Assembly (NCBI GenBank): GCA_015067825.1
Contig: SVLQ01000010.1
Span: 32,750-96,749 of the forward strand
DNA from: Oscillospiraceae bacterium
GTDB taxonomy: Bacteria > Bacillota > Clostridia > Oscillospirales > QAMX01
DNA length: 64,000 nt
Direction of reading: 5' to 3'
Shown here: positions 2,044-53,743 of the stretch, in pieces
Position numbering within the stretch: position 1 is the stretch's first letter
Layout of the letters: each line of letters starts with the position of its first letter
The notes under the pieces: model-generated
Database searches by the model: none
Told to the model about the DNA's origin: nothing
The model's input: only the letters and a program-made list of their open reading frames with translations
Translations under genes and position numbers: made by a program

Positions 2044-2081
2044 ATTTGCATAACGTAGCGAACACAGGAGGAATCAGCCCC

Positions 2082-3014
2082 ATGAAACACTATCCCTTCA
2101 AATCCGACGGAACCTTTCGTATCTGCCAGTTTACCGACCTGCATTTACATACCTATGACCGCTTTGAGGAAGGCGAACAGACCTATGCGCTGCTGCGCCA
2201 GACTTTGCGCGATACCAACCCTGACCTCGTTGTCATCACCGGCGATATCGCTTGGGGCAAAGAACCCGAAAGTGCCATCGCCGAGCTGGAAAAGATCTTT
2301 GCCGAAGCCGGCGTGATGTGGGCGCCGGTGCTCGGCAACCACGACGGTGAATACTTCATGGAGTCGCTGCAGATCCCGAATGAAGAAGGCCGCAGAATGT
2401 TTGCCCAGAGGCTGTTCACCGAAAACAGCCTCTATGAAACGGGCGCGGAAGGGGTCGATGGCAACGGCAACTACGTCGTCACCGTCGGCGGCACGGCGGA
2501 CAAACCCGCGTGGGCGCTCTTCCTGCTCGACAGCCACCGCGGCTACTTTGATCTCAGCCAGAATCTCTGGTACCGCGAGACCTCGAAAGCGCTCCCGCAT
2601 TCCCACGAGCTCTCCTTCTTCCATATTCCGTTTCCGGAATACGTCGAAGTCTGGGACTATACCGCCTGTAAGGGCTACTGCTTAGAGTCGATCTGCGATA
2701 CCGAAATGAACGACGGCATGTTCGCCGCCATGGTCGAGTGCGGCAAGATGCGCGGCGTTTTCGTCGGCCACGACCATATCAACGACTTTGAAGGCACGCT
2801 CCAAAATATCCGCCTCTGCTACGGCCGCGGATCGGGCTACCAGACCTACGGCTATGAAAATTATGCACGCGGTGCGCGCATCATCGACATCGACGCATCC
2901 GCCGATTTCAAGACCTATATCTATCTCGCGACCGGCGAGATGTACGAACAGGATCGCTGCCACCGTCCCAAGCTGATGCGCAAGCATCAGCGCGCGGACG
3001 AACTGCTGAAGTAA
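2082..3014 (+). CDS. Calcineurin-like metallophosphoesterase (Dcr2/PAP-like)
   Basis: DLH, GD, GNHD, FFHIP, GHDHINDF and YGRGSG motifs; ATG at 2082 after GGAGG. Confidence 0.88.
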   Translation: MKHYPFKSDGTFRICQFTDLHLHTYDRFEEGEQTYALLRQTLRDTNPDLVVITGDIAWGKEPESAIAELEKIFAEAGVMWAPVLGNHDGEYFMESLQIPNEEGRRMFAQRLFTENSLYETGAEGVDGNGNYVVTVGGTADKPAWALFLLDSHRGYFDLSQNLWYRETSKALPHSHELSFFHIPFPEYVEVWDYTACKGYCLESICDTEMNDGMFAAMVECGKMRGVFVGHDHINDFEGTLQNIRLCYGRGSGYQTYGYENYARGARIIDIDASADFKTYIYLATGEMYEQDRCHRPKLMRKHQRADELLK

Positions 3015-3031
3015 AAAAGAAGGAGGAAGCT

Positions 3032-3934
3032 ATGAAACATTTTTCTCTGAATGAAAACGGCACGTTCCGTATTTGCCAGCTGACCGATATCCACCTCGAG
3101 CACGACCGCCTGCACGAAGAGGGCGAAAAAACCTATGCGCTGATCAAAAATGCCGTCCGCGATACCAACCCCGACCTCGTCGTCATTACCGGTGACCTTG
3201 CGTGGGGCACCAACGACGATCTCGAGATCGACCGTTTGGCGTCGATCATGGAAGAACTTGGCGTCGCGTGGGCGCCGGTCCTGGGCAATCACGACGGCCA
3301 GGATCTCGCCGGCGGCGGTGAGGCCGGCCGCGAGATGTTTGCCGGGTTCCTCGCCAACCGCAAAGGCGGCCTCTTCGAGCTCGGCCCGAAAGACATCGCC
3401 GGCCATGGGAACTATACGGTTACCGTCGGCGGCACGGCGGATGCGCCAAAGTGGGTACTCTATCTGCTCGATTCCCGCGAAAACGGGTTCGATTTTTCGC
3501 AGGTGCTTTGGTATAAAAATACGTCGGAGGCCTTCGGCAACGACCACAGCGAGCTGGCGTTTTTTCATATTCCGCTCCCCGAATACGATTGGGTGTGGGA
3601 CTACGTCGATTGTCTTGGCTACAATCAAGAGCAGGTGGCTGCAATGCCGCTCAACGTGGGTATGTTCTCGGCGATGGTGCGCCGCGGCAGAATGCGCGGT
3701 ACGTTCGTCGGCCACGACCATATCAACGATTTCGAGGGCACGCTGCGCGGTATCCGCCTCTGCTACGGCCGCGGTTCGGGTTACCAGTGCTACGGTATGA
3801 ACGGCTTTGAACACGGTGCGCGCATCATCGACCTCAAGCCCGACGGCACGTTCGATACGCAGATCTATACGGAATCCGGCGCACTCTACCACCAGGAGCG
3901 TGAACATTCGCACAAAGTCAACAGCAAATGCTGA
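3032..3934 (+). CDS. Calcineurin-like metallophosphoesterase, tandem paralog
   Basis: Same motif set as 2082..3014; AAGGAGG RBS. Confidence 0.88.
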   Translation: MKHFSLNENGTFRICQLTDIHLEHDRLHEEGEKTYALIKNAVRDTNPDLVVITGDLAWGTNDDLEIDRLASIMEELGVAWAPVLGNHDGQDLAGGGEAGREMFAGFLANRKGGLFELGPKDIAGHGNYTVTVGGTADAPKWVLYLLDSRENGFDFSQVLWYKNTSEAFGNDHSELAFFHIPLPEYDWVWDYVDCLGYNQEQVAAMPLNVGMFSAMVRRGRMRGTFVGHDHINDFEGTLRGIRLCYGRGSGYQCYGMNGFEHGARIIDLKPDGTFDTQIYTESGALYHQEREHSHKVNSKC

Positions 3935-3947
3935 TTGGTGCTGAAGG

Positions 3948-4310
3948 ATGTATCAACATACCCCACGGCTCACGCCGCTTGCAAAAGAACTGCGCAAACG
4001 TCTGACCGCCGAAGAACGGCATCTTTGGTACGATTTTCTGCGGTCGTATCCGGTACGGTTCCTGCGGCAAAAGATTGTGGGAACGTATATTGTCGATTTT
4101 TATTGCGCGTCGGCAAAGCTGGTGGTCGAATTGGATGGTTCACAGCACTATCAGGCAGACGGATTGCGTTCAGACGCCGAGCGGACCGCGTTCCTGCAAG
4201 GTTGTGGGCTGAAGGTCATGCGGATTCCCAATAACGCGGTGCATCAGGATTTCCGCGGTGTTTGTGAAGCAATTGATACAGCGGTAAGGGATGCTTTGGA
4301 GCAGAGGTGA
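3948..4310 (+). CDS. DUF559 (Vsr-like) endonuclease-domain protein
   Basis: AKELRKRLTAEERHLW...FLRQ...YIVDFYC..AKLVVELDGSQH...G.KVMRI.N pattern. Confidence 0.88.
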   Translation: MYQHTPRLTPLAKELRKRLTAEERHLWYDFLRSYPVRFLRQKIVGTYIVDFYCASAKLVVELDGSQHYQADGLRSDAERTAFLQGCGLKVMRIPNNAVHQDFRGVCEAIDTAVRDALEQR

Positions 4311-4330
4311 ACGGCGTCCACCCGCAACAG

Positions 4331-5075
4331 GAATCCCCCAGTCTTCCGCGTTTGCTTGCGCAATCGCGGAAGCCAGCCCCCTTTACAAGGGGGCCTTGGA
4401 GCCTGCCGTTCCCACCGCCACACGGCAAAGCCTCGCCACCTGCGTTGGCTAACCACCCAAGCCTCCCTTGTAAAGGGAGGTGGGTTTTGCCGCAGGCAAA
4501 AGCCGGAGGGATTCCGATCCCACCGCCGCACGGCAAAATCTCTCCACCCGCAGCAAGAATCCCCCAGTCTTCCGCGTTTGCTCGCGCAATCGCGGAAGCC
4601 AGCCCCCTTTACAAGGGGGCCTTGGAGATTACCGTTCCCACTGCCGCACGGTAAAGTCTCTCCACCGACATTGGATAGCCACCCAAGCCTCCCTTGTAAA
4701 GGGAGGTGGGTTTTGCCGCAGGCAAAAGCCGGAGGGATTCCGTTCCCATCGCCACACGGTAAAGTCTCTCCACCGGCGTTGGCTAACCGCCCAAGCCTCC
4801 CTTGTAAAGGGAGGTGGGTTTTGCCGCAGGCAAAAGCCGGAGGGATTCTGTTCCCGTCGCCGTGCAATAAAGTTTCTCCACCCGCAACAGGAATCCCCCA
4901 GTCTTCCGCGTTTGTTTACGCAATCGCGGAAGCCAGCCCCCTTTGCAAGGGGGCCTTGGAGCCTGCCGTTCCCAACGCCGTACGGCAAAGTCTTTCCACC
5001 GACATTAGTTAGCCACCCAAAGCCTCCCTTGTAAAGGGAGGTGGGTTTTGCCGCAGGCAAAAGCCGGAGGGATTC
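4331..5075. repeat. REP/BIME-like array of seven palindromic units (order A-B-A-B-B-A-B) with conserved linkers
   Basis: A units of 69 bp at 4331, 4557 and 4891; B units of ~58 bp at 4457, 4683, 4791 and 5017; B is an inverted variant of A; each unit has two hairpins. Confidence 0.93.
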
Positions 5076-5199
5076 TGTTCCCGTCGCCGCGTGGTAAGGT
5101 CTCTTTGCCTGTGATAACAGACGCGCCACAGATCACATAGCCTATCCCGCTTTAAAAAAGTTCGTTGCTCTTCCAAAAAAACGCAAAGGAGAATCTCCC

Positions 5200-7563
5200 A
5201 TGAAAAATCGCACGTTTTTGCTCGCTTTGCTGCTAATGCTCTTCTGCCTTGCCGGCTGCGGCGGGGAAGAGCCTACTGAAACCGATCCGCCGGAATCGCC
5301 CGAACGCCCGGCGAAAACCGAGGAGGCCGCCTTGATCCCCGAAGACGGTGTCGTCAAAATTGAGGACGAAACCGGCACCTACGAGGTCGTCTACGCCGAG
5401 GGTCTCAAGGAAATTACAATGGACGAAGAGACCAACGTGCTCGTCTCGGCCGACGACGAAAACTTCATCTACACGTTTGAAAACGCCGATCTCGTCCTGA
5501 GCATGATGCGCGAGGGCGACGTTTTCTGCGGCATTCTGCCCGATAGCGGCGAGGCGCTTGCGATCGTCGTCCGCGAGATCGAGAAAAACGGCGACTCCGT
5601 TACCGTCTACGGCGTGCAGCCGACGCTGGAGGATTTGTTTGAGTCGATCGAGATCGAGGCGACTTACGGTGCCGACGCGCTCATTGTCGACGAGCTTGCC
5701 GAAGGCGTGACGATGGAAGAAACGCCTGCCGATCCGTCACTTTCCGCAGAAATACCGCGTGCGACAAACCTTGCAGCGCACCCTGCTCCGGGGCTGACCG
5801 CGCAAAACCTGGCCTCGCAGACGGTTGAGATCAACCGCACGTTTACTCAAGCGCTGCGCGTGGAAAACGACTATACGTTTGTGGAAGGGTCGGTATCGGA
5901 AACGATCGAATCTGTAACCGTATCCCTGGACTACACCCGTGGGAAAGACAAGGTCGTTGCATCCGTGGTTACGCGTACGACCGATTCGCTCCGTGCGGAT
6001 TTGGGTATTCAGGCCGGTTGGGAAGATGATTTCGAGATCGGCGAATTCCACGTAAAAACGTCGATTCCGTTCGTTACTGTTCCGCTGGAATTGAGCGTTC
6101 ATGTGTCCTTTTCCGGCAGCGTCGGCGGTACGTTCGAGTACGAACAGACCCGCCTTTCCGGTTCGGAGGTCACGGCCACGACCATGGGAGTTACGCACCG
6201 GGATATTGACGAAGTGGTATCGAAGGACGTGAAGGCCGATTTTGTCAATTTCCAGGCCGAGGTAAAGGTTGGTCCCCAAATCAGTATCGGTGTGGCGGTT
6301 TTTAAGGATCTGCTTCGCGTGGACCTCGCGTTGGGCATGGGCGTGAAGATTGAGGCGGAGTACGCGCCGTTTGAGCCGTGGGACGAATTTGCCGATTCCT
6401 GTCACGACTGCGGCGTCTGTTTCGACGGCGAGATCAGCCTGTTTGTCGAGCTGGTCGGTAGCGCCAAGGCGAGTTTTCCGGGGCTTGAACCTGTTACTGC
6501 CTCGATCACGATGGCAGAGGTTACCAAAAAGCTCAATGATTTCTATGTTTCTCTCGGCCCCGATGGCCGCGCCGATCCGCGCTTCGGTTGGGGCGAATGC
6601 CCCTACCGCCGCTATCGCACGGAGGTGAAGGTGAGCAACAAGTTCGGTGAAATCTACGGTGCAGAAGTTCACGCATCGTATCCCGATGGTCGCGTGGAAA
6701 CTCAATGGTCGAACGAATACGGCATGGCCGTATTTTGGCTTCCGGAGGGGAGGAACTGGCTGGATGCGGAATATGGTGGCCGTATCAACGGCGATCACTA
6801 CGAGATTGCTGCAAAACCCGGTAAGGCAGAGGTTAAACTGGATTTTGACCAACGTGTGATTGTTGTATGTGATATGTTTATGCCGGAAGAAGATCCTGCA
6901 CTGATTGCGTCTGTCCGTGCAAGATACCCGGATGCTGAATTTTATACAAACGCAAATCTCGATTTCTACGAATGGTATATTGATGATCCTTGGAGAGTGG
7001 AAAGGTTTGTCAATCATTTTGTCGAAGACGTGGATGTCGGCGATATAATTATTTGTCTTGATCCGTATGGGGCAGGGCTTAATAATCATATCGAATCAAT
7101 GTTGCTCCTTGTGATCCAGGAACATGGAGAACTGGATTTTTTGACAGTGTACGGAAATTCCGTAGGGGCAGATTATGAGTATGAGGTAGAAGCAACACCG
7201 AATCCGGATCGACCGGGATGGGATGCATATGTTGATTTCTATGTAAGCGAGGTGTATTTTGATGTCGCTGAAAAAATACGAACAGATGCCGAAATTGATG
7301 AACAGTTTAATTTGATCAATAAAGGATATATGGACGAAGGATTCGTGACGGGCCTTTGGTCTACCAGAAAACATATCTACAAAACGGAATATACCTGGTA
7401 TCATCGAGACTATGGCTTTATGTATGCAGAAGATCACGGCTTGGATCATAATACTGAAAGCAACGGTTATATTGAGTCGCAGGCAGATTCCTGGGGACAA
7501 GCTGCAATTGATTACGGTATGCAGTGCTTATTTCAGCAGGTCGATGCTTTGCTTGTTGACTGA
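5200..7563 (+). CDS. Large uncharacterised lipoprotein
   Basis: 787-aa ORF, AAGGAG RBS, signal peptide with LAGC lipobox, acidic and beta-rich body. Confidence 0.8.
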   Translation: MKNRTFLLALLLMLFCLAGCGGEEPTETDPPESPERPAKTEEAALIPEDGVVKIEDETGTYEVVYAEGLKEITMDEETNVLVSADDENFIYTFENADLVLSMMREGDVFCGILPDSGEALAIVVREIEKNGDSVTVYGVQPTLEDLFESIEIEATYGADALIVDELAEGVTMEETPADPSLSAEIPRATNLAAHPAPGLTAQNLASQTVEINRTFTQALRVENDYTFVEGSVSETIESVTVSLDYTRGKDKVVASVVTRTTDSLRADLGIQAGWEDDFEIGEFHVKTSIPFVTVPLELSVHVSFSGSVGGTFEYEQTRLSGSEVTATTMGVTHRDIDEVVSKDVKADFVNFQAEVKVGPQISIGVAVFKDLLRVDLALGMGVKIEAEYAPFEPWDEFADSCHDCGVCFDGEISLFVELVGSAKASFPGLEPVTASITMAEVTKKLNDFYVSLGPDGRADPRFGWGECPYRRYRTEVKVSNKFGEIYGAEVHASYPDGRVETQWSNEYGMAVFWLPEGRNWLDAEYGGRINGDHYEIAAKPGKAEVKLDFDQRVIVVCDMFMPEEDPALIASVRARYPDAEFYTNANLDFYEWYIDDPWRVERFVNHFVEDVDVGDIIICLDPYGAGLNNHIESMLLLVIQEHGELDFLTVYGNSVGADYEYEVEATPNPDRPGWDAYVDFYVSEVYFDVAEKIRTDAEIDEQFNLINKGYMDEGFVTGLWSTRKHIYKTEYTWYHRDYGFMYAEDHGLDHNTESNGYIESQADSWGQAAIDYGMQCLFQQVDALLVD

Positions 7564-36015: not shown

Positions 36016-37482
36016 ATGAAGCTCATTGCTCTTTCCGGCGGAGCGGGTGCGGATACCGCCCGCTCGGTCTGCGCAGCCAACGGTATCGTCCCGGCCGAAC
36101 GCGTTTTGCACGCGTTCGAAAAAAAGGACGCCAAGGCTTTGGCGCAGGAGCTGATCGCCGAGCAGCCTACATCAATTTTATGCTTTGGTGAGACCGGTTT
36201 TTCAGCCGGTCTTTTTGTGCTGCCATGGCTCCGAAAGGCGAAAATCCCACTCTTTGCCATCGCCGACGCGCAAACAGAGCTTCCCAGATCCGCTGCAAAA
36301 TTTGACGCGATCCTCTGCGCCGACCATACCGTCCGCGTCCACCTTCTCCGGACGGCGGGATCTGCGGTAAGGTTCCGTCTGCTTTCCGATGGTCCGGCCG
36401 TCCTCACCGCGCCGCACCCCGAAAAACGCAGCGAAATTGTCATCAGCGGTTCGTACGGGCTTTCCAATTTGGGCGACGAGGCTATGCTGACGGCGATCCT
36501 CGCGCAGATCGAAACAATCGATCCGCGCCGCACCGTCACCGTACTTTCGCGCAATCCCGCCGAGACCCGAACAACCCACGGCATCCGGACGTTACCCACG
36601 TTTGCGCTCGGACGGCTTTGGTGCCGGCTGCGCCGCACCAAGCTTTTCCTCAGCGGCGGTGGTACGCTTCTGACCGATCTCACCAGCACTGGTTCTCTCC
36701 TTTACTACCTGACAACCATCCGCCTCGCGCACCTCGCCGGGGCTAAGGTTCTTCTTTACAGCTGCGGCATCGGCCCGTTTTCATCCGCAGCAAACAAAAA
36801 GCGCACCGCGCGCACGCTGAACCGATGCGCTGATGCGATCGTCGTCCGCGACGGCCGTTCGGCCGACGAACTCGCTGCCATCGGCGTGACCGTGCCGCCC
36901 ATCATCCAAGGTTCCGATGTGGCGTTTTCGCTTACGCCGGAGATGCTGGGCTCGGCGGAATTGCCGCAGGAGCTCGCCGCGCTCGGCCGCTACGTCGTAT
37001 TCGCCCTGCGCCCATGGAATGCTGATGCCCAAACCGCCGAAGTGATCGCCGAAACGGCACAGCGGCTTTGGCTGGAGCATGGGCTGGCGTCCGTGTTTTT
37101 GGGTATGGAACGGCCGAAGGATTTGCCGCTTGCGCGGACGATTGCCGCCAAGCTCACTACCCCGCACCTTGTTTTGGAAAATATCACGTCGTTTGCTGCA
37201 GTATACGCCGTGACCACCCACGCCGCAGCCGTTGTCAGCATGCGCCTGCACGCGATGATCGCTGCCGGACTGGCCGGAGTGCCGGTCGTCGGCATTTCCT
37301 ACGACATCAAAATCAGCGGCCACCTCGCTCACATCGGCAGCCTCGACTGTGTGGAATACGCCGACCTCACATCCGACGCATTGTTTGCACAGATCTCGCA
37401 CACGTTGGAGTCCGGTCACGCATACTTTCCGCCGCAGACAAGCGACGGCGAAGCGGTTCTGCGAGCCATGCTCACCGACTAA
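36016..37482 (+). CDS. csaB: Polysaccharide pyruvyl transferase with N-terminal extension
   Basis: SGSYGLSNLGDEA, SGGGTLL.D.TS..SL.YY, GIGP, VRD and MRLHA motifs. Confidence 0.85.
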   Translation: MKLIALSGGAGADTARSVCAANGIVPAERVLHAFEKKDAKALAQELIAEQPTSILCFGETGFSAGLFVLPWLRKAKIPLFAIADAQTELPRSAAKFDAILCADHTVRVHLLRTAGSAVRFRLLSDGPAVLTAPHPEKRSEIVISGSYGLSNLGDEAMLTAILAQIETIDPRRTVTVLSRNPAETRTTHGIRTLPTFALGRLWCRLRRTKLFLSGGGTLLTDLTSTGSLLYYLTTIRLAHLAGAKVLLYSCGIGPFSSAANKKRTARTLNRCADAIVVRDGRSADELAAIGVTVPPIIQGSDVAFSLTPEMLGSAELPQELAALGRYVVFALRPWNADAQTAEVIAETAQRLWLEHGLASVFLGMERPKDLPLARTIAAKLTTPHLVLENITSFAAVYAVTTHAAAVVSMRLHAMIAAGLAGVPVVGISYDIKISGHLAHIGSLDCVEYADLTSDALFAQISHTLESGHAYFPPQTSDGEAVLRAMLTD

Positions 37483-52138: not shown

Positions 52139-53743
52139 ATGCGAACGAAAAAACTGCCCGCGATCCTGCTGGCACTCTGCTGCCTGTTGGGTGCCTGCTC
52201 GGTGCAAAAATCAGAAAACACCCCGGAACTGCCGGAGGGCACGGTCGTGATCGATTTGTCCGGCAACGGCGTTACGGTCGACGGGAAAACTGCCGACGGA
52301 AATACGGATGCGGCGGTCTACGTCGCCAACGATATCGTCTACTACGAAGCCGGCCACGATTTCACCTACGGTGAGGGCACGGAGTCCGACGCCCACAGCG
52401 CTGAAGAAGCCGCCGCCCATACGGTGGTACATATCACGAAGCCCGGCATCTATAGCCTGAGCGGAACGCTCCCGGCGGGGCAGATCGCGGTCGATCTCGG
52501 CGACGACGCCGAAGAAGATCCGCAGGCCGTAGTCACGCTGATCCTAAACGGCGTGGATATCACCTGCACGGTCGCGCCGGCGGTGATCTTTTATAACGTC
52601 TACGAATGCGGTTCGGCCGATGCCGAAACCGCCGATAAAACGGTCGACACCTCGGCGGCGGGCGCAAACGTCGTCATCGCCGACGGCACGGTCAACCAAA
52701 TCAAGGGCGCGTACGTCGCGCGCATCTATAAGCCCGATACGCTGGAACTGAGCGAAGACGGCACGGAAGTGCTCGATGCCAAAAAGCTCCACAAATACGA
52801 CGCCGCCTTCTACTCCAAAATGTCGATGAACGTCACCGGCGGAGAGGCCGGAACGGGCAAGCTGCTGATCGATGCGGCTAACGAGGGGTTAGACAGCGAG
52901 CTCCACCTGACGATCAACGGCGGCCAAATCGAGATCGAATCCGGCAACGACGGCATCAATACGAACGAAGACGGTGTCTCCGTCACGACGATCAACGGCG
53001 GCTCGGTAAAGATCCGTGTGACCGGCGCGACCGGTGAGGGCGACGGCATCGACTCCAACGGTTGGCTCGTCATCAACGGCGGCACGGTCGTTGCGGAGGC
53101 GTGTGCCACCAGCGGTGACGCGGGCATCGACTCGGATATGGGCATCCATATCAACGGCGGCACGGTCATCGCCACCGGCCATATGCTCGACCGGATCGAA
53201 GCCGGCGGCCAGAACCACGCCGTGTTCAACTTCGCCGCCGAGCAGAAAGGCGATTCGGTCGTCAGCCTCAAAACGGCCGACGGCGAGGCGGTTTTTGATA
53301 TCGCGCCGCAAAACGCCTGCTCGATCCTCGTCTTCAGTTCGCCGGCGCTGCAGGCCGGAACGTATACGCTCTGGAGCGGTGAAACGCAGCTTGCCGGCAT
53401 CAGCGGCAGCATGGGCGGCTTCGGCGGCAAGGGCGACGGAATGCGCCCGGACGGCAATTTCGGCGGCGAGCCCCCCGAAGGCGCGACGCCGCCGGAGGGC
53501 TTCGACCGCGGCGAACGCCCCGAAGGCGAGATCCCCGAAGGCATGACTCCTCCCGATGGTTTTGGCCGTGGCGAACGTCCCGAAGGTGAGATGCCCGAAG
53601 GCCTGACGCCGCCGGATGGAAACTTTGGCGTGGGCGGCGGCATGCGCCCGGGTAGCTTTGGCGAGATGAGCGGCGAGCTTTCGACCGAATTTGTCATCGT
53701 CGACGGCAGCAACCAGTTCTATCAGATCGCTGCAGCGCAGTAA
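52139..53743 (+). CDS. Carbohydrate-binding beta-helix lipoprotein (Cthe_2159/DUF4353-like)
   Basis: LGAC lipobox, ITKPGIYSLSGT, repeated DGID/DGIN...INGG. Confidence 0.82.
   Translation: MRTKKLPAILLALCCLLGACSVQKSENTPELPEGTVVIDLSGNGVTVDGKTADGNTDAAVYVANDIVYYEAGHDFTYGEGTESDAHSAEEAAAHTVVHITKPGIYSLSGTLPAGQIAVDLGDDAEEDPQAVVTLILNGVDITCTVAPAVIFYNVYECGSADAETADKTVDTSAAGANVVIADGTVNQIKGAYVARIYKPDTLELSEDGTEVLDAKKLHKYDAAFYSKMSMNVTGGEAGTGKLLIDAANEGLDSELHLTINGGQIEIESGNDGINTNEDGVSVTTINGGSVKIRVTGATGEGDGIDSNGWLVINGGTVVAEACATSGDAGIDSDMGIHINGGTVIATGHMLDRIEAGGQNHAVFNFAAEQKGDSVVSLKTADGEAVFDIAPQNACSILVFSSPALQAGTYTLWSGETQLAGISGSMGGFGGKGDGMRPDGNFGGEPPEGATPPEGFDRGERPEGEIPEGMTPPDGFGRGERPEGEMPEGLTPPDGNFGVGGGMRPGSFGEMSGELSTEFVIVDGSNQFYQIAAAQ
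53468..53620 (+). repeat. 60-bp coding tandem repeat (PEGxTPPxGFxRGERPEGEx)
   Basis: cccgaaggc anchors at 53474, 53534 and 53594. Confidence 0.8.

What the first reader, a model, noticed from the sequence alone, without database searches (positions are those of the whole stretch)
3948..5100. DUF559 endonuclease abutting a structured palindromic array: candidate nuclease-plus-REP system
Seen: the repeat array starts about 20 bp after the stop codon of a standalone 120-aa DUF559 gene and has seven double-hairpin units, each followed by a related ~35-bp linker (gttcccNNcgccRcacggYaaagtctctccacc consensus). I saw no other copy in the window and no transposase. Established: REP/BIME arrays in Proteobacteria cluster beside their cognate HUH nuclease (TnpA-REP/RAYT), and DUF559 has a Vsr-like PD-(D/E)xK fold; Vsr cuts at mismatches. 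Inference: DUF559 may be an analogous domesticated nuclease of a different fold that recognises these imperfect hairpins (as DNA cruciforms or RNA) and spreads or maintains them. I know of no characterised mechanism for such a pairing.
Basis: partly seen in the sequence, partly recalled or inferred. Interest (0 to 1): 0.85.

Follow-up and report, generated by a model that had tools for sequence, protein, structure and literature searches.

The report
DUF559 nuclease with triplex-hairpin repeats
A small nuclease gene of unknown function lies beside, and in many gut bacteria is bracketed by, its own family of folded DNA repeats whose sequence pattern implies a three-stranded fold, which points to a new nuclease-plus-repeat partnership.

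Summary
A 120-aa DUF559 gene (3948-4310) is followed by exactly seven double-hairpin units (4328-5078; three in one orientation, four in the other), each followed by a ~33-nt linker core.

The pairing is not chance:
- All five DUF559 genes of this genome abut such units, each with its own sequence type.
- In 80 loci from other genomes, 66 have a unit in a fixed position: the unit tail supplies the ribosome site, and the stop codon lies inside the downstream unit.
- In 26 loci chosen by Pfam alone, 20 have an adjacent unit, against 0 of 34 control ORFs.

Gene-less units occur as inverted doublets, solos and arrays, much like REPINs.

New here: the tail after hairpin 2 is the mirror (not the complement) of the purine arm of hairpin 1, across at least 12 sequence types. 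That is the code of an antiparallel purine-motif DNA triplex. E. coli YcjD (45% identical) likewise abuts BoxC, the known intrastrand-triplex repeat.

Best reading: DUF559 is the cognate nuclease of triplex-type hairpin repeats, an analogue of REP/RAYT. Catalysis and mobility are untested. Some genomes hold many units but no assembled DUF559.

The parts
3948..4310 (+). Standalone DUF559 (Vsr-fold PD-(D/E)xK) gene, 120 aa. The putative catalytic residues D50, E61, D63 and H67 are intact.
   Evidence: Pfam E 4.7e-30. PDB 3HRL E 1.7e-18. These residues are invariant in 107 of 107 homologues. 45% identical to E. coli YcjD.
3941..3949 (+). Possible remnant of an upstream unit tail, one mismatch from the canonical tail, overlapping the start codon. 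No upstream hairpins remain, because the preceding gene ends at 3934.
   Evidence: Read from the sequence against the canonical upstream units. Weak, inferred.
4317..4327 (+). First conserved bases of the array. They match the 3' part of a linker, the stretch that precedes every A unit.
   Evidence: TRF start. Comparison of array rows.
4328..4400 (-). Unit A1: pyrimidine head, long hairpin 2, hairpin 1.
   Evidence: Covariance model R1, 48.4 bits, E 2.2e-15. DNA fold z -5.9.
4408..4440 (+). Linker core 1. All seven linker cores are in the same orientation.
   Evidence: Regex on the window. Row layout.
4456..4517 (+). Unit B1: hairpin 1, hairpin 2, purine tail.
   Evidence: R1 48.9 bits, E 1.4e-15. 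DNA fold z -4.2.
4516..4549 (+). Linker core 2.
4554..4626 (-). Unit A2.
   Evidence: R1 50.2 bits
4634..4666 (+). Linker core 3.
4682..4743 (+). Unit B2.
   Evidence: R1 48.8 bits
4742..4774 (+). Linker core 4.
4790..4851 (+). Unit B3.
   Evidence: R1 50.7 bits
4850..4883 (+). Linker core 5.
4888..4960 (-). Unit A3.
   Evidence: R1 45.6 bits
4968..5000 (+). Linker core 6.
5017..5078 (+). Unit B4.
   Evidence: R1 52.7 bits
5077..5109 (+). Linker core 7, diverged; the end of the array.

Best explanation
The window holds one locus of a nuclease-plus-repeat partnership that I did not find described in print.

The repeat unit is about 57-72 nt. It has a pyrimidine/purine hairpin 1 (8-9 bp), a hairpin 2 of free sequence with conserved pairing, and a 9-nt purine tail. 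The tail is the mirror image of the purine arm of hairpin 1. As single-stranded or extruded DNA, the tail can therefore lie in the groove of hairpin 1 as the third strand of an antiparallel purine-motif triplex. On the other strand, the pyrimidine head can do the same in parallel.

DUF559 genes are normally bracketed by two such units in inverted orientation. The same units occur without a gene as inverted doublets with a 22-24-nt spacer, as solos, and as arrays such as the one here. Each DUF559 paralogue has its own unit type.

I infer that DUF559, a Vsr-fold nuclease with intact catalytic residues, recognises and nicks the folded unit. I infer that this drives copying or gene conversion of units, and so creates and maintains the repeat family, as RAYT is thought to do for REP/REPIN.

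The window's array grew largely by duplication of multi-unit blocks.

Shown: the anatomy, the non-random association, the co-variation, and the mirror rule. Inferred: the triplex fold, the nuclease acting on the units, and any mobility.
For: Association within this genome. The genome has 5 DUF559 genes, and all 5 abut units. The four unit sequence types each have extra gene-less copies.

Association elsewhere. In 80 foreign loci, a unit HMM finds both canonical flanks in 47, upstream only in 8, downstream only in 11 and neither in 14. The flanking inverted-repeat score exceeds the 99th percentile of 159 control ORFs in 48 of 77 loci. In loci chosen by Pfam only, a parser that uses no sequence model finds an adjacent unit in 20 of 26, against 0 of 34 control ORFs.

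Homology of array units and gene flanks. The model built from gene flanks finds all 7 window units and 51-57 units genome-wide.

Structure. Both hairpins show compensatory changes: CG 65 versus GC 64 at one pair of hairpin 1, and CG 45, GC 44, AU 21, UA 15 at one pair of hairpin 2.

Mirror rule. 119 of 335 distinct arm/tail combinations match 8 of 8 positions, against 2 of 335 under a direct-repeat rule. The own-arm versus other-arm matrix is diagonal for at least 12 arm types. The substitutions seen are G to G, A to A or T, and C to T. These are the triads of purine-motif triplexes named in PMC4666352, except the T.CG triad, which I recalled.

Presence and absence. Family sample: 14 both, 7 units only, 1 DUF559 only, 13 neither; odds ratio 26. 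Class sample: type III hairpin in 33 of 46 genomes with DUF559 against 61 of 352; with a strong standalone DUF559, 33 of 46 against 19 of 352.

Co-diversification. 9 changes of unit type on the protein tree, against a mean of 15.8 and a minimum of 14 in 300 shuffles.

Purifying selection. D50, E61, D63, H67, D76, R79, R92 and N95 are invariant in 107 of 107 proteins.

Independent parallel in E. coli K-12. Its only DUF559 gene, ycjD, ends inside a degenerate BoxC-like element. A full BoxC/TM copy lies about 175 nt downstream; the chance of that is about 0.004. BoxC forms an intrastrand triplex in vitro and has no known partner protein (PMC4666352, sections read).
Against: No cleavage, binding or transposition has been shown.

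5 of 6 arrays in this genome have no DUF559 beside them.

G020 (97% complete) has 81 units and no DUF559, and G002 (93% complete) has 42 and none. Five further genomes have 1-6 units without the gene. In the class sample, 13 of 46 genomes with the type III hairpin lack DUF559. E. coli Sakai has 15 BoxC cores but no ycjD. These may be assembly losses: many DUF559 genes sit within 500 nt of contig ends. They may also be relic units. Either way, they show that units persist without the gene.

No target-site duplication was seen by eye in the roughly 70 listed pairs. No clean empty site was found.

Related genomes are not independent, so the p-values overstate.

Co-variation of protein and flank is also what simple linkage would give.

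The triplex rests on sequence co-variation alone. Type III tails carry one position that breaks the rule.
Confidence: 0.55

Rival explanations
1. Selfish cassette. The DUF559 gene is a free-standing, homing-type endonuclease gene. It targets pre-existing inverted doublets of the repeat and copies only itself into them by break repair. The repeats have another origin and spread by other means.
For: Gene-less doublets have the same two units as the cassettes, with a 22-24-nt spacer where the gene would be. DUF559 aligns weakly (E 0.032) with the 'mobile intron protein' 3R3P, a Vsr-fold homing endonuclease (PMC3424549 table row). Genomes carry up to 5-6 copies. Type I cassettes appear in Anaerolineaceae MAGs nested among Clostridia sequences.
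Against: The ORF start and stop are built into the units: the ribosome site is the unit tail, and the last 7 codons lie in the downstream unit. That argues for long co-evolution rather than insertion into a neutral target. Each paralogue has its own unit type. No occupied/empty pair at one orthologous site was found.
Confidence: 0.2
2. Cis-acting elements only. The units are terminator, insulator or mRNA-stability hairpins. They regulate DUF559 and many other genes and spread by ordinary recombination. The substrate of DUF559 lies elsewhere, in repair or defence.
For: The upstream unit tail is the Shine-Dalgarno sequence. The downstream hairpin 1 is often followed by a T run, like an intrinsic terminator. 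Units appear in contigs of one RNA library (this does not prove transcription). REPs and BIMEs have such roles (recalled).
Against: It does not explain why each DUF559 paralogue carries a private unit type that also exists gene-less elsewhere. It does not explain why unit presence tracks DUF559 presence across families. Purine-motif triplexes are said not to form in RNA (PMC4666352 introduction), so the mirror rule points to DNA. The terminator scan over the array found 4 sites, against 3.3 expected. No defence-system family matched beyond weak partial hits.
Confidence: 0.12
3. Coincidence or hitch-hiking. Abundant intergenic repeats happen to land near a small gene, and the window's gene-array adjacency means nothing.
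For: Most arrays in this genome lie next to unrelated genes. The window's gene lacks the upstream unit.
Against: 5 of 5 genes in this genome abut units. 20 of 26 loci against 0 of 34 controls. Fixed register with the start and stop codons in dozens of genomes. Odds ratios of 12-44 across Clostridia.
Confidence: 0.03

Closest known systems
REP / REPIN with RAYT (TnpA-REP) in Proteobacteria
   Same: A single-domain nuclease gene is flanked by inverted copies of its own palindromic repeat. Gene-less inverted doublets correspond to REPINs. Repeats cluster in mosaic arrays. Different paralogues each have their own repeat type. Repeat presence tracks nuclease presence.
   Different: The protein is a Vsr-fold PD-(D/E)xK nuclease, not an HUH Y1 transposase. 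The genome's Y1 genes have unrelated flanks. The unit is a double hairpin with a mirror tail, not a single hairpin with a 5' GTAG or CGTC tag. The host is Clostridia.
BoxC / PIT / TM_ECO intrastrand-triplex repeats (Holder et al. 2015, PMC4666352; sections read)
   Same: A pyrimidine block, a purine block and a mirror purine block in a class II purine-motif triplex. The elements are intergenic, high in copy number, and form inverted doublets of two subtypes. No transposase lies nearby. E. coli ycjD (DUF559) abuts such elements.
   Different: Here the third strand is joined through a whole extra hairpin of 15-35 nt. That is beyond the 1-6-nt loops that the published finder allowed. The sequence families differ. 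A partner protein is proposed here; the words 'endonuclease' and 'ycjD' do not occur in that paper's main text.
BIMEs (mosaic REP clusters of E. coli)
   Same: Alternating unit orientation with conserved linkers, and growth by block duplication.
   Different: All linkers here share one orientation whichever way the unit faces. The units are unrelated. This comparison is recalled, apart from the one-line mention in PMC4666352.
IS200/IS605 ends (guide-sequence recognition of cleavage sites)
   Same: Subterminal hairpins are read as single-stranded DNA. The cleavage site is defined by nucleic-acid contacts with the foot of the hairpin. The tail-hairpin triplex here could play that role.
   Different: The enzyme is of a different fold. 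No cleavage site is known here. This is analogy only (recalled; abstract of PMC6006769 seen).
Vsr and the Vsr-fold homing endonuclease I-Bth0305I (PDB 3R3P)
   Same: Same fold clan. PMC3424549 groups VSR, DUF559 and DUF2726 with 1cw0, 3hrl and 3r3p.
   Different: There is no methyltransferase partner, intron or intein context here. The sequence match to 3R3P is only E 0.032.

Membership tests
DUF559 (PF04480), Vsr-like PD-(D/E)xK clan | Match to the Pfam model above its gathering score | tested here: met
   104.1 bits against a cut-off of 20.6, E 4.7e-30. NCBIfam PRK09767 scores 70.6 bits, below its equivalog cut-off of 218, so the protein is a homologue of YcjD and not an equivalog.
DUF559 (PF04480), Vsr-like PD-(D/E)xK clan | Conserved acidic and histidine core expected of an active nuclease | tested here: met
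   D50, E61, D63 and H67 are invariant in 107 of 107 proteins. The protein aligns to the solved DUF559 structure 3HRL at E 1.7e-18. That these residues are catalytic is inferred.
REP/RAYT (REPIN-RAYT) system | Associated protein is an HUH Y1 transposase (PF01797) | tested here: not met
   The associated protein is DUF559. The 3 PF01797 matches in the genome have unrelated flanks.
REP/RAYT (REPIN-RAYT) system | Nuclease gene flanked by inverted copies of its own repeat, with gene-less inverted doublets elsewhere | tested here: met
   47 of 80 loci have both flanks. Three doublets occur in this genome.
REP/RAYT (REPIN-RAYT) system | REP is a single hairpin with a conserved 5' GTAG/CGTC tetranucleotide | tested here: not met
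   The units are double hairpins with a mirror tail and carry no such tag. The tag definition comes from the abstract of PMC3733652.
Intrastrand triplex repeats (BoxC/PIT/TM) | Three consecutive blocks: a pyrimidine stem, a purine stem, and a second purine stem that mirrors the first | tested here: met
   Mirror match at 8 of 8 positions in 119 of 335 combinations, against 2 of 335 under the direct rule, across at least 12 arm types.
Intrastrand triplex repeats (BoxC/PIT/TM) | Short loops (1-6 nt) between blocks, and the TM_ECO consensus | tested here: not met
   The second 'loop' is a 15-35-nt hairpin, and the sequence differs from the published pattern.
Intrastrand triplex repeats (BoxC/PIT/TM) | The triplex actually forms (CD, NMR, footprinting) | not testable with these tools
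   Only co-variation is available. The folding tool models Watson-Crick pairs only.
MITE or transposon with terminal inverted repeats | Target-site duplication and a transposase | tested here: inconclusive
   No duplication was seen by eye in the roughly 70 listed unit pairs; there was no formal test. No transposase lies in the cassette.
Homing endonuclease gene | Occupied and empty alleles at one site; an intron, intein or free-standing context | tested here: inconclusive
   Doublets resemble empty sites, but no orthologous occupied/empty pair was found.
CRISPR array | Identical repeats separated by unique spacers, with cas genes | tested here: not met
   Both the 'repeat' and the 'spacer' are repeated. 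Rfam finds no CRISPR family.
Any Rfam RNA family | Match at gathering score | tested here: not met
   Window 3800-5400 gives only two sub-threshold chance-level matches. The canonical cassette L010:1850-2480 gives none.

The most novel reading that the evidence does not exclude
DUF559 proteins are the long-missing partner enzymes of intrastrand-triplex repeats throughout bacteria. That would include BoxC/PIT/TM elements of E. coli with YcjD, the double-hairpin units of Clostridia, and similar units in other classes. The nuclease would be structure-guided. The triplex between the unit's tail and its own hairpin would define what is bound and where it is cut, so the DNA specifies its own cleavage site and tail and stem must co-evolve. 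This would give a function to a widespread domain of unknown function. It would also explain the origin of a repeat class that has been unexplained since the 1990s.
Probability: 0.3. Interest if true: 0.92.

Novelty: new variant of a known kind. Interest (0 to 1): 0.86.

Why it matters
DUF559 is a common domain with no assigned role. It was found in 95 of 399 sampled Clostridia genomes and in 3378 of 5426 complete E. coli genomes.

BoxC/PIT/TM triplex repeats have been known for decades. They have been linked to genome instability, but no associated protein is known (PMC4666352).

A cognate nuclease for triplex-type repeats would do several things:
- It would give both the domain and the repeats a testable function.
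- It would extend the REPIN-RAYT idea of long-lived repeat-and-nuclease partnerships to a second, unrelated enzyme fold and to Firmicutes.
- It would provide natural co-variation evidence for an intramolecular DNA triplex in vivo.
- It might yield a structure-specific nuclease whose specificity is set by the DNA itself.

On the practical side, these units break short-read assemblies of gut bacteria. Many DUF559 genes lie at contig ends, and contigs stop inside the array. The units also spawn spurious ORFs across arrays.

Tried and rejected
Rfam. No family explains the units.

CRISPR-like reading. Rejected, because both parts of the array repeat.

Protein-coding reading. Long ORFs cross the array on both strands, as expected of a stop-free repeat. 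I did not pursue this.

Y1 transposase as the partner. Rejected, because its flanks are unrelated.

Empty-site search in the four genomes of the same genus. The flanking phosphoesterase is only 67-68% identical and the context differs, so no conclusion is possible.

E. coli empty site. Strains without ycjD carry an efflux operon at that place (also passages of PMC12817139), so there is no clean empty allele.

Target-site duplications. None seen by eye.

Watson-Crick pairing of the tail with the 5' arm (anti-SD with SD) as the cause of the co-variation. Rejected: it predicts the direct-repeat rule, which fits 2 of 335 combinations against 119 of 335 for the mirror rule.

Sequencing runs. All four runs laid are contigs. 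They confirm the flanks at 0 differences and break inside the array. One RNA library holds unit-like contigs, which does not prove transcription.

Defence-system and phage family scans. Only weak partial matches.

Promoter and terminator scan. Nothing above the shuffled expectation.

Not done. Structure prediction, fold search, complex prediction, the two large protein searches and the protein atlas were not used, because the Pfam and PDB sequence matches were unambiguous.

Literature. I searched 'DUF559'+'palindromic' (3 papers), 'DUF559' (25 papers; listing seen, passages read in 3), REPIN+RAYT+endonuclease (listing), mirror repeat/triplex terms (listing), 'ycjD' (21 papers; listing, passages read in 2), and intrastrand triplex/BoxC terms (4 papers). 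None links DUF559 or YcjD to repeats. Supplementary tables of PMC4666352 (gene neighbours of TM_ECO) and of PMC9881135 could bear on this, and I could not see them. [quoted passage not shown] That fits genes flanked by inverted repeats.

Rows dropped:
- One search used 77 of 80 loci; 3 had flanks that were too short.
- Alignment A2 used 133 of the 220 unit hits (near-full-length and distinct) plus 2 window units.
- parsed 26 of 29 new loci; L111, L117 and L124 failed my frame check.
- The tree used 107 of 111 proteins (length 100-140 aa, no stop). Unit type was scored for 81 rows; the rest had no type or a mixed type.
- fetched 14 of the 17 non-own places listed. Of those 14, 5 show mirror-type units by eye (L128, L129, L134, L135, L137), 1 is doubtful (L132), and 8 show none. 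No formal test was run on these.

The E. coli comparison covers six strains, three of them from one phylogroup. It is a lead, not a test.
Full report
WHAT IS IN THE WINDOW

ORF 3948-4310(+) encodes a 120-aa protein that matches Pfam DUF559 at E 4.7e-30. It matches the solved DUF559 structure 3HRL at E 1.7e-18. The preceding phosphoesterase gene ends at 3934, so there is no room for an upstream element. Only a 9-nt stretch over the start codon resembles a unit tail.

Seven nucleotides after the stop codon a repeat array begins. A covariance model built only from sequences of other genomes finds exactly seven units in the 64-kb window, all in the array. Four lie on the plus strand and three on the minus strand, in the order A B A B B A B.

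Each unit is followed by a ~33-nt linker core, always in the same orientation. As single-stranded DNA the units fold far better than shuffles (z -4.2 and -5.9). The linkers do not fold notably.

THE ARRAY IS NOT UNIQUE, AND THE GENE IS NOT ALONE

The genome (2.7 Mb, 23 contigs) holds five more arrays, up to 1.6 kb long and up to 94% identical over multi-unit blocks that include the linkers. None of these five lies next to a DUF559 gene. It also holds four more DUF559 genes.

Reading their flanks changed the picture. Every one of the five genes abuts double-hairpin units, and four are flanked on both sides.

In the canonical form:
- The upstream unit reads hairpin 1, hairpin 2, purine tail. The tail is the ribosome-binding site, 2-8 nt before the ATG.
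- The downstream unit is the inverse. The last codons and the stop lie in its pyrimidine head and hairpin 2.

The five paralogues are 50-64% identical. They carry four distinct unit sequence types, and each type also occurs gene-less elsewhere in the genome. Three gene-less inverted doublets carry a conserved 22-24-nt spacer where the gene would be. These look like the REPIN doublets of Proteobacteria.

GENERALITY

A scan of one genome per species returned 595 confirmed relatives, of which the best 80 loci were kept. These are mostly Oscillospiraceae and other Clostridia MAGs, with five Anaerolineaceae.
- The score for an inverted repeat across the gene exceeds the 99th percentile of 159 control ORFs in 48 of 77 loci.
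- An HMM of the unit finds both canonical flanks in 47 of 80, one flank in 19, and none in canonical position in 14. Of those 14, 12 have units nearby.

That HMM came from these same flanks. I therefore repeated the test on 26 loci drawn from an even sample of 399 Clostridia genomes, chosen by the Pfam model alone. I used a parser that knows only structure: a perfect pyrimidine-rich stem, a perfect second hairpin, and a mirror tail.
- 20 of 26 genes have an adjacent unit, 8 of them on both sides.
- 0 of 34 control ORFs in the same loci have one.
- A unit lies within 150 nt in 22 of 26 genes, against 2 of 34 controls.

Other loci repeat the window's arrangement of a DUF559 gene inside or next to an array: L027 and L034, and L134 in a closed genome of another class.

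PRESENCE AND ABSENCE

In the window's taxonomic family (35 genomes), 14 have units and DUF559, 13 have neither, 7 have units only and 1 has DUF559 only. The Fisher odds ratio is 26 and Spearman's rho is 0.65.

Across the class sample, the type III hairpin pattern occurs in 46 of 398 genomes. Of these, 33 have DUF559, against 61 of the other 352 (odds ratio 12). Counting only strong standalone matches, the figures are 33 of 46 against 19 of 352 (odds ratio 44).

Related genomes are not independent, so these figures overstate. Even so, the hits span many families.

The exceptions matter. G020 has 81 units and G002 has 42, with no DUF559 found. DUF559 cassettes are bounded by repeats and often lie within a few hundred bases of contig ends, so some absences may be assembly losses. 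Still, units clearly can persist without the gene.

STRUCTURE AND THE MIRROR RULE

An alignment of 135 units supports both hairpins by compensatory change. Hairpin 2 varies almost freely in sequence and length but keeps its pairing.

The unexpected feature is the tail. It is neither a complement nor a direct copy of anything in the unit. It is the purine arm of hairpin 1 read backwards. When the arm changes, the tail changes with it. I saw this in at least 12 arm types, including a shift in the position of the single A, which is not what a direct repeat predicts.
- Among 335 distinct arm/tail combinations from the structural parser, 119 match at 8 of 8 positions under the mirror rule, against 2 under a direct-repeat rule.
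- Tails almost never match the mirror of another type's arm.

The allowed correspondences are G with G, A with A or T, and the closing C with T. These are the triads of an antiparallel purine-motif triplex. The C-G-G, A-A-T and T-A-T triads are named in PMC4666352. The T.CG triad is recalled.

The geometry fits. After hairpin 2 the chain returns to the base of hairpin 1. The tail then runs up the stem, antiparallel to the purine arm. On the complementary strand, the pyrimidine head runs parallel to the purine arm, which is the pyrimidine motif.

The same paper's introduction states that purine-motif triplexes do not form in RNA. I therefore read the constraint as acting on DNA. One type (III) carries a position that breaks the rule. 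The triplex remains an inference from co-variation.

LINK TO A KNOWN REPEAT CLASS

A literature search for mirror repeats led to Holder et al. 2015 (PMC4666352; outline, sections 15, 16 and 18, and passages read). That paper covers BoxC, also called PIT or TM_ECO:
- It is an intrastrand purine-motif triplex repeat that forms a triplex in vitro.
- It has 23 copies in E. coli K-12.
- It includes five inverted doublets of two subtypes.
- Its copy number varies widely between strains.
- No mobility gene was ever found near it.

E. coli K-12 has one DUF559 gene, ycjD, 45% identical to the window's protein. Several features of its locus stand out:
- Its last codons and stop lie in a degenerate BoxC-like element.
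- Part of its 3' end is duplicated just downstream.
- A full BoxC core lies about 175 nt downstream.
- The chance of such proximity for one gene is about 0.004.

A DUF559 gene on a short contig of an unrelated genome ends with the same 15 bases and is flanked by BoxC-like cores on both sides (L128).

BoxC core counts against ycjD in six strains:
- K-12: 23, ycjD present.
- 55989: 32, ycjD present.
- Sakai: 15, ycjD absent.
- IHE3034, CFT073 and UTI89: 2 each, ycjD absent.

This is confounded by phylogroup. ycjD is found in phylogroups A, B1 and C in place of the eef operon (PMC12817139 passages). It is a lead only.

WHAT THE PROTEIN LOOKS LIKE

In 107 homologues at 40-70% identity to the window's protein, D50, E61, D63, G64, H67, D76, R79, R92 and N95 never vary. 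That fits an active nuclease under purifying selection.

The protein tree groups proteins by unit type. The type III clade has SH-aLRT support of 94. There are 9 changes of type, against at least 14 in 300 shuffles. Linkage alone would also give this result.

There is no convincing match to defence-system or phage families.

HOW IT MOST LIKELY WORKS

I commit to the following at about 0.55. DUF559 is the cognate nuclease of triplex-type double-hairpin repeats. It recognises the folded unit in single-stranded or extruded DNA and nicks it. Repair or copying then spreads units and keeps the family homogeneous, as proposed for RAYT and REPINs. Arrays such as the window's then grow mainly by duplication of [unit-linker] blocks. 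This is seen in the 88-94% identical multi-unit repeats within and between arrays.

Rivals:
- A homing-type selfish cassette that targets pre-existing doublets (0.2).
- Purely cis-regulatory hairpins with an unrelated nuclease (0.12).
- Coincidence (0.03).

No target-site duplication or clean empty site was found, so the mode of movement is open.

COMPARISON AND NOVELTY

In logic this is a REPIN-RAYT-like system. In structure its repeats belong with the BoxC/PIT/TM intrastrand-triplex motifs. It is a member of neither family:
- The protein is not an HUH transposase.
- The unit has no GTAG tag.
- The third strand is joined through an extra hairpin, which the published triplex finder (loops of 1-6 nt) would not detect.

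My six literature searches found no paper that links DUF559 or YcjD with repeats. I rate this a new variant of a known kind, with high interest.

Noticed in passing
L127:11030-11840 (E. coli K-12, ycjD region): ycjD, the only DUF559 gene of K-12, has a perfect 16-bp inverted repeat spanning its start. Its stop codon lies in a degenerate BoxC-like element. About 40 nt of its 3' end are duplicated downstream, and a full BoxC/TM_ECO core lies about 175 nt downstream. ycjD is present in 3378 of 5426 complete E. coli genomes.
   Followed up: partly
G000 C9:60587-60809, and window 5200-7563: The array on contig C9 lies directly upstream of a paralogue of the 787-aa lipoprotein gene that follows the window's array; the two share the same signal peptide. 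Either the array was duplicated together with the gene, or arrays favour this promoter region.
   Followed up: no
L021:2360-2480, L030:2360-2470, L102 and L105 (upstream and downstream units): Other small palindromic elements are inserted at one and the same place inside the 5' arm or loop of hairpin 1 of DUF559-flanking units. The units seem to be insertion targets themselves.
   Followed up: no
G000 C9:133400-134000, and C19 near 36750-37020: A different short palindrome occurs, including inside a RAYT-like Y1 ORF with only a weak PF01797 match; it reads GAIHESP or GRFVNRP when translated. It looks like a second, unrelated repeat family of this genome.
   Followed up: no
L101, L103, L104, L105, L108 (upstream 70-120 nt): One clade of cassettes, from several families, shares a conserved upstream stretch with a near-consensus -35/-10 promoter, and a conserved downstream hairpin. 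In that clade the conserved element is larger than gene plus units.
   Followed up: no
L004 (G000 C14:123263-123622): This DUF559 copy looks decayed. Conserved W27 and Y28 are replaced, the upstream unit is reduced to a tail remnant, and the 3' end of the ORF is replaced by a unit in the opposite orientation.
   Followed up: partly
window 2046-3934: Two tandem calcineurin-like phosphoesterase paralogues lie here (Pfam E about 1e-14 each). Relatives in the same genus have a single copy.
   Followed up: no
window 53465-53619: A 60-nt tandem repeat of 2.6 copies at 80% match lies inside what looks like coding sequence.
   Followed up: no
window 4300-5100 in public metagenome runs: The loop variant of hairpin 1 typical of DUF559 cassettes reaches word depths in the thousands in animal gut metagenomes, against about 6 for the flanking genes. 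It also appears in contigs of one metatranscriptome library. These units are very abundant in gut communities.
   Followed up: partly
L038, L039, L046, L052, L054: Five Anaerolineaceae MAG contigs carry type I cassettes with nearly the same unit sequence as Clostridia. They form one clade nested among Clostridia proteins. This suggests horizontal transfer or mis-binning.
   Followed up: no
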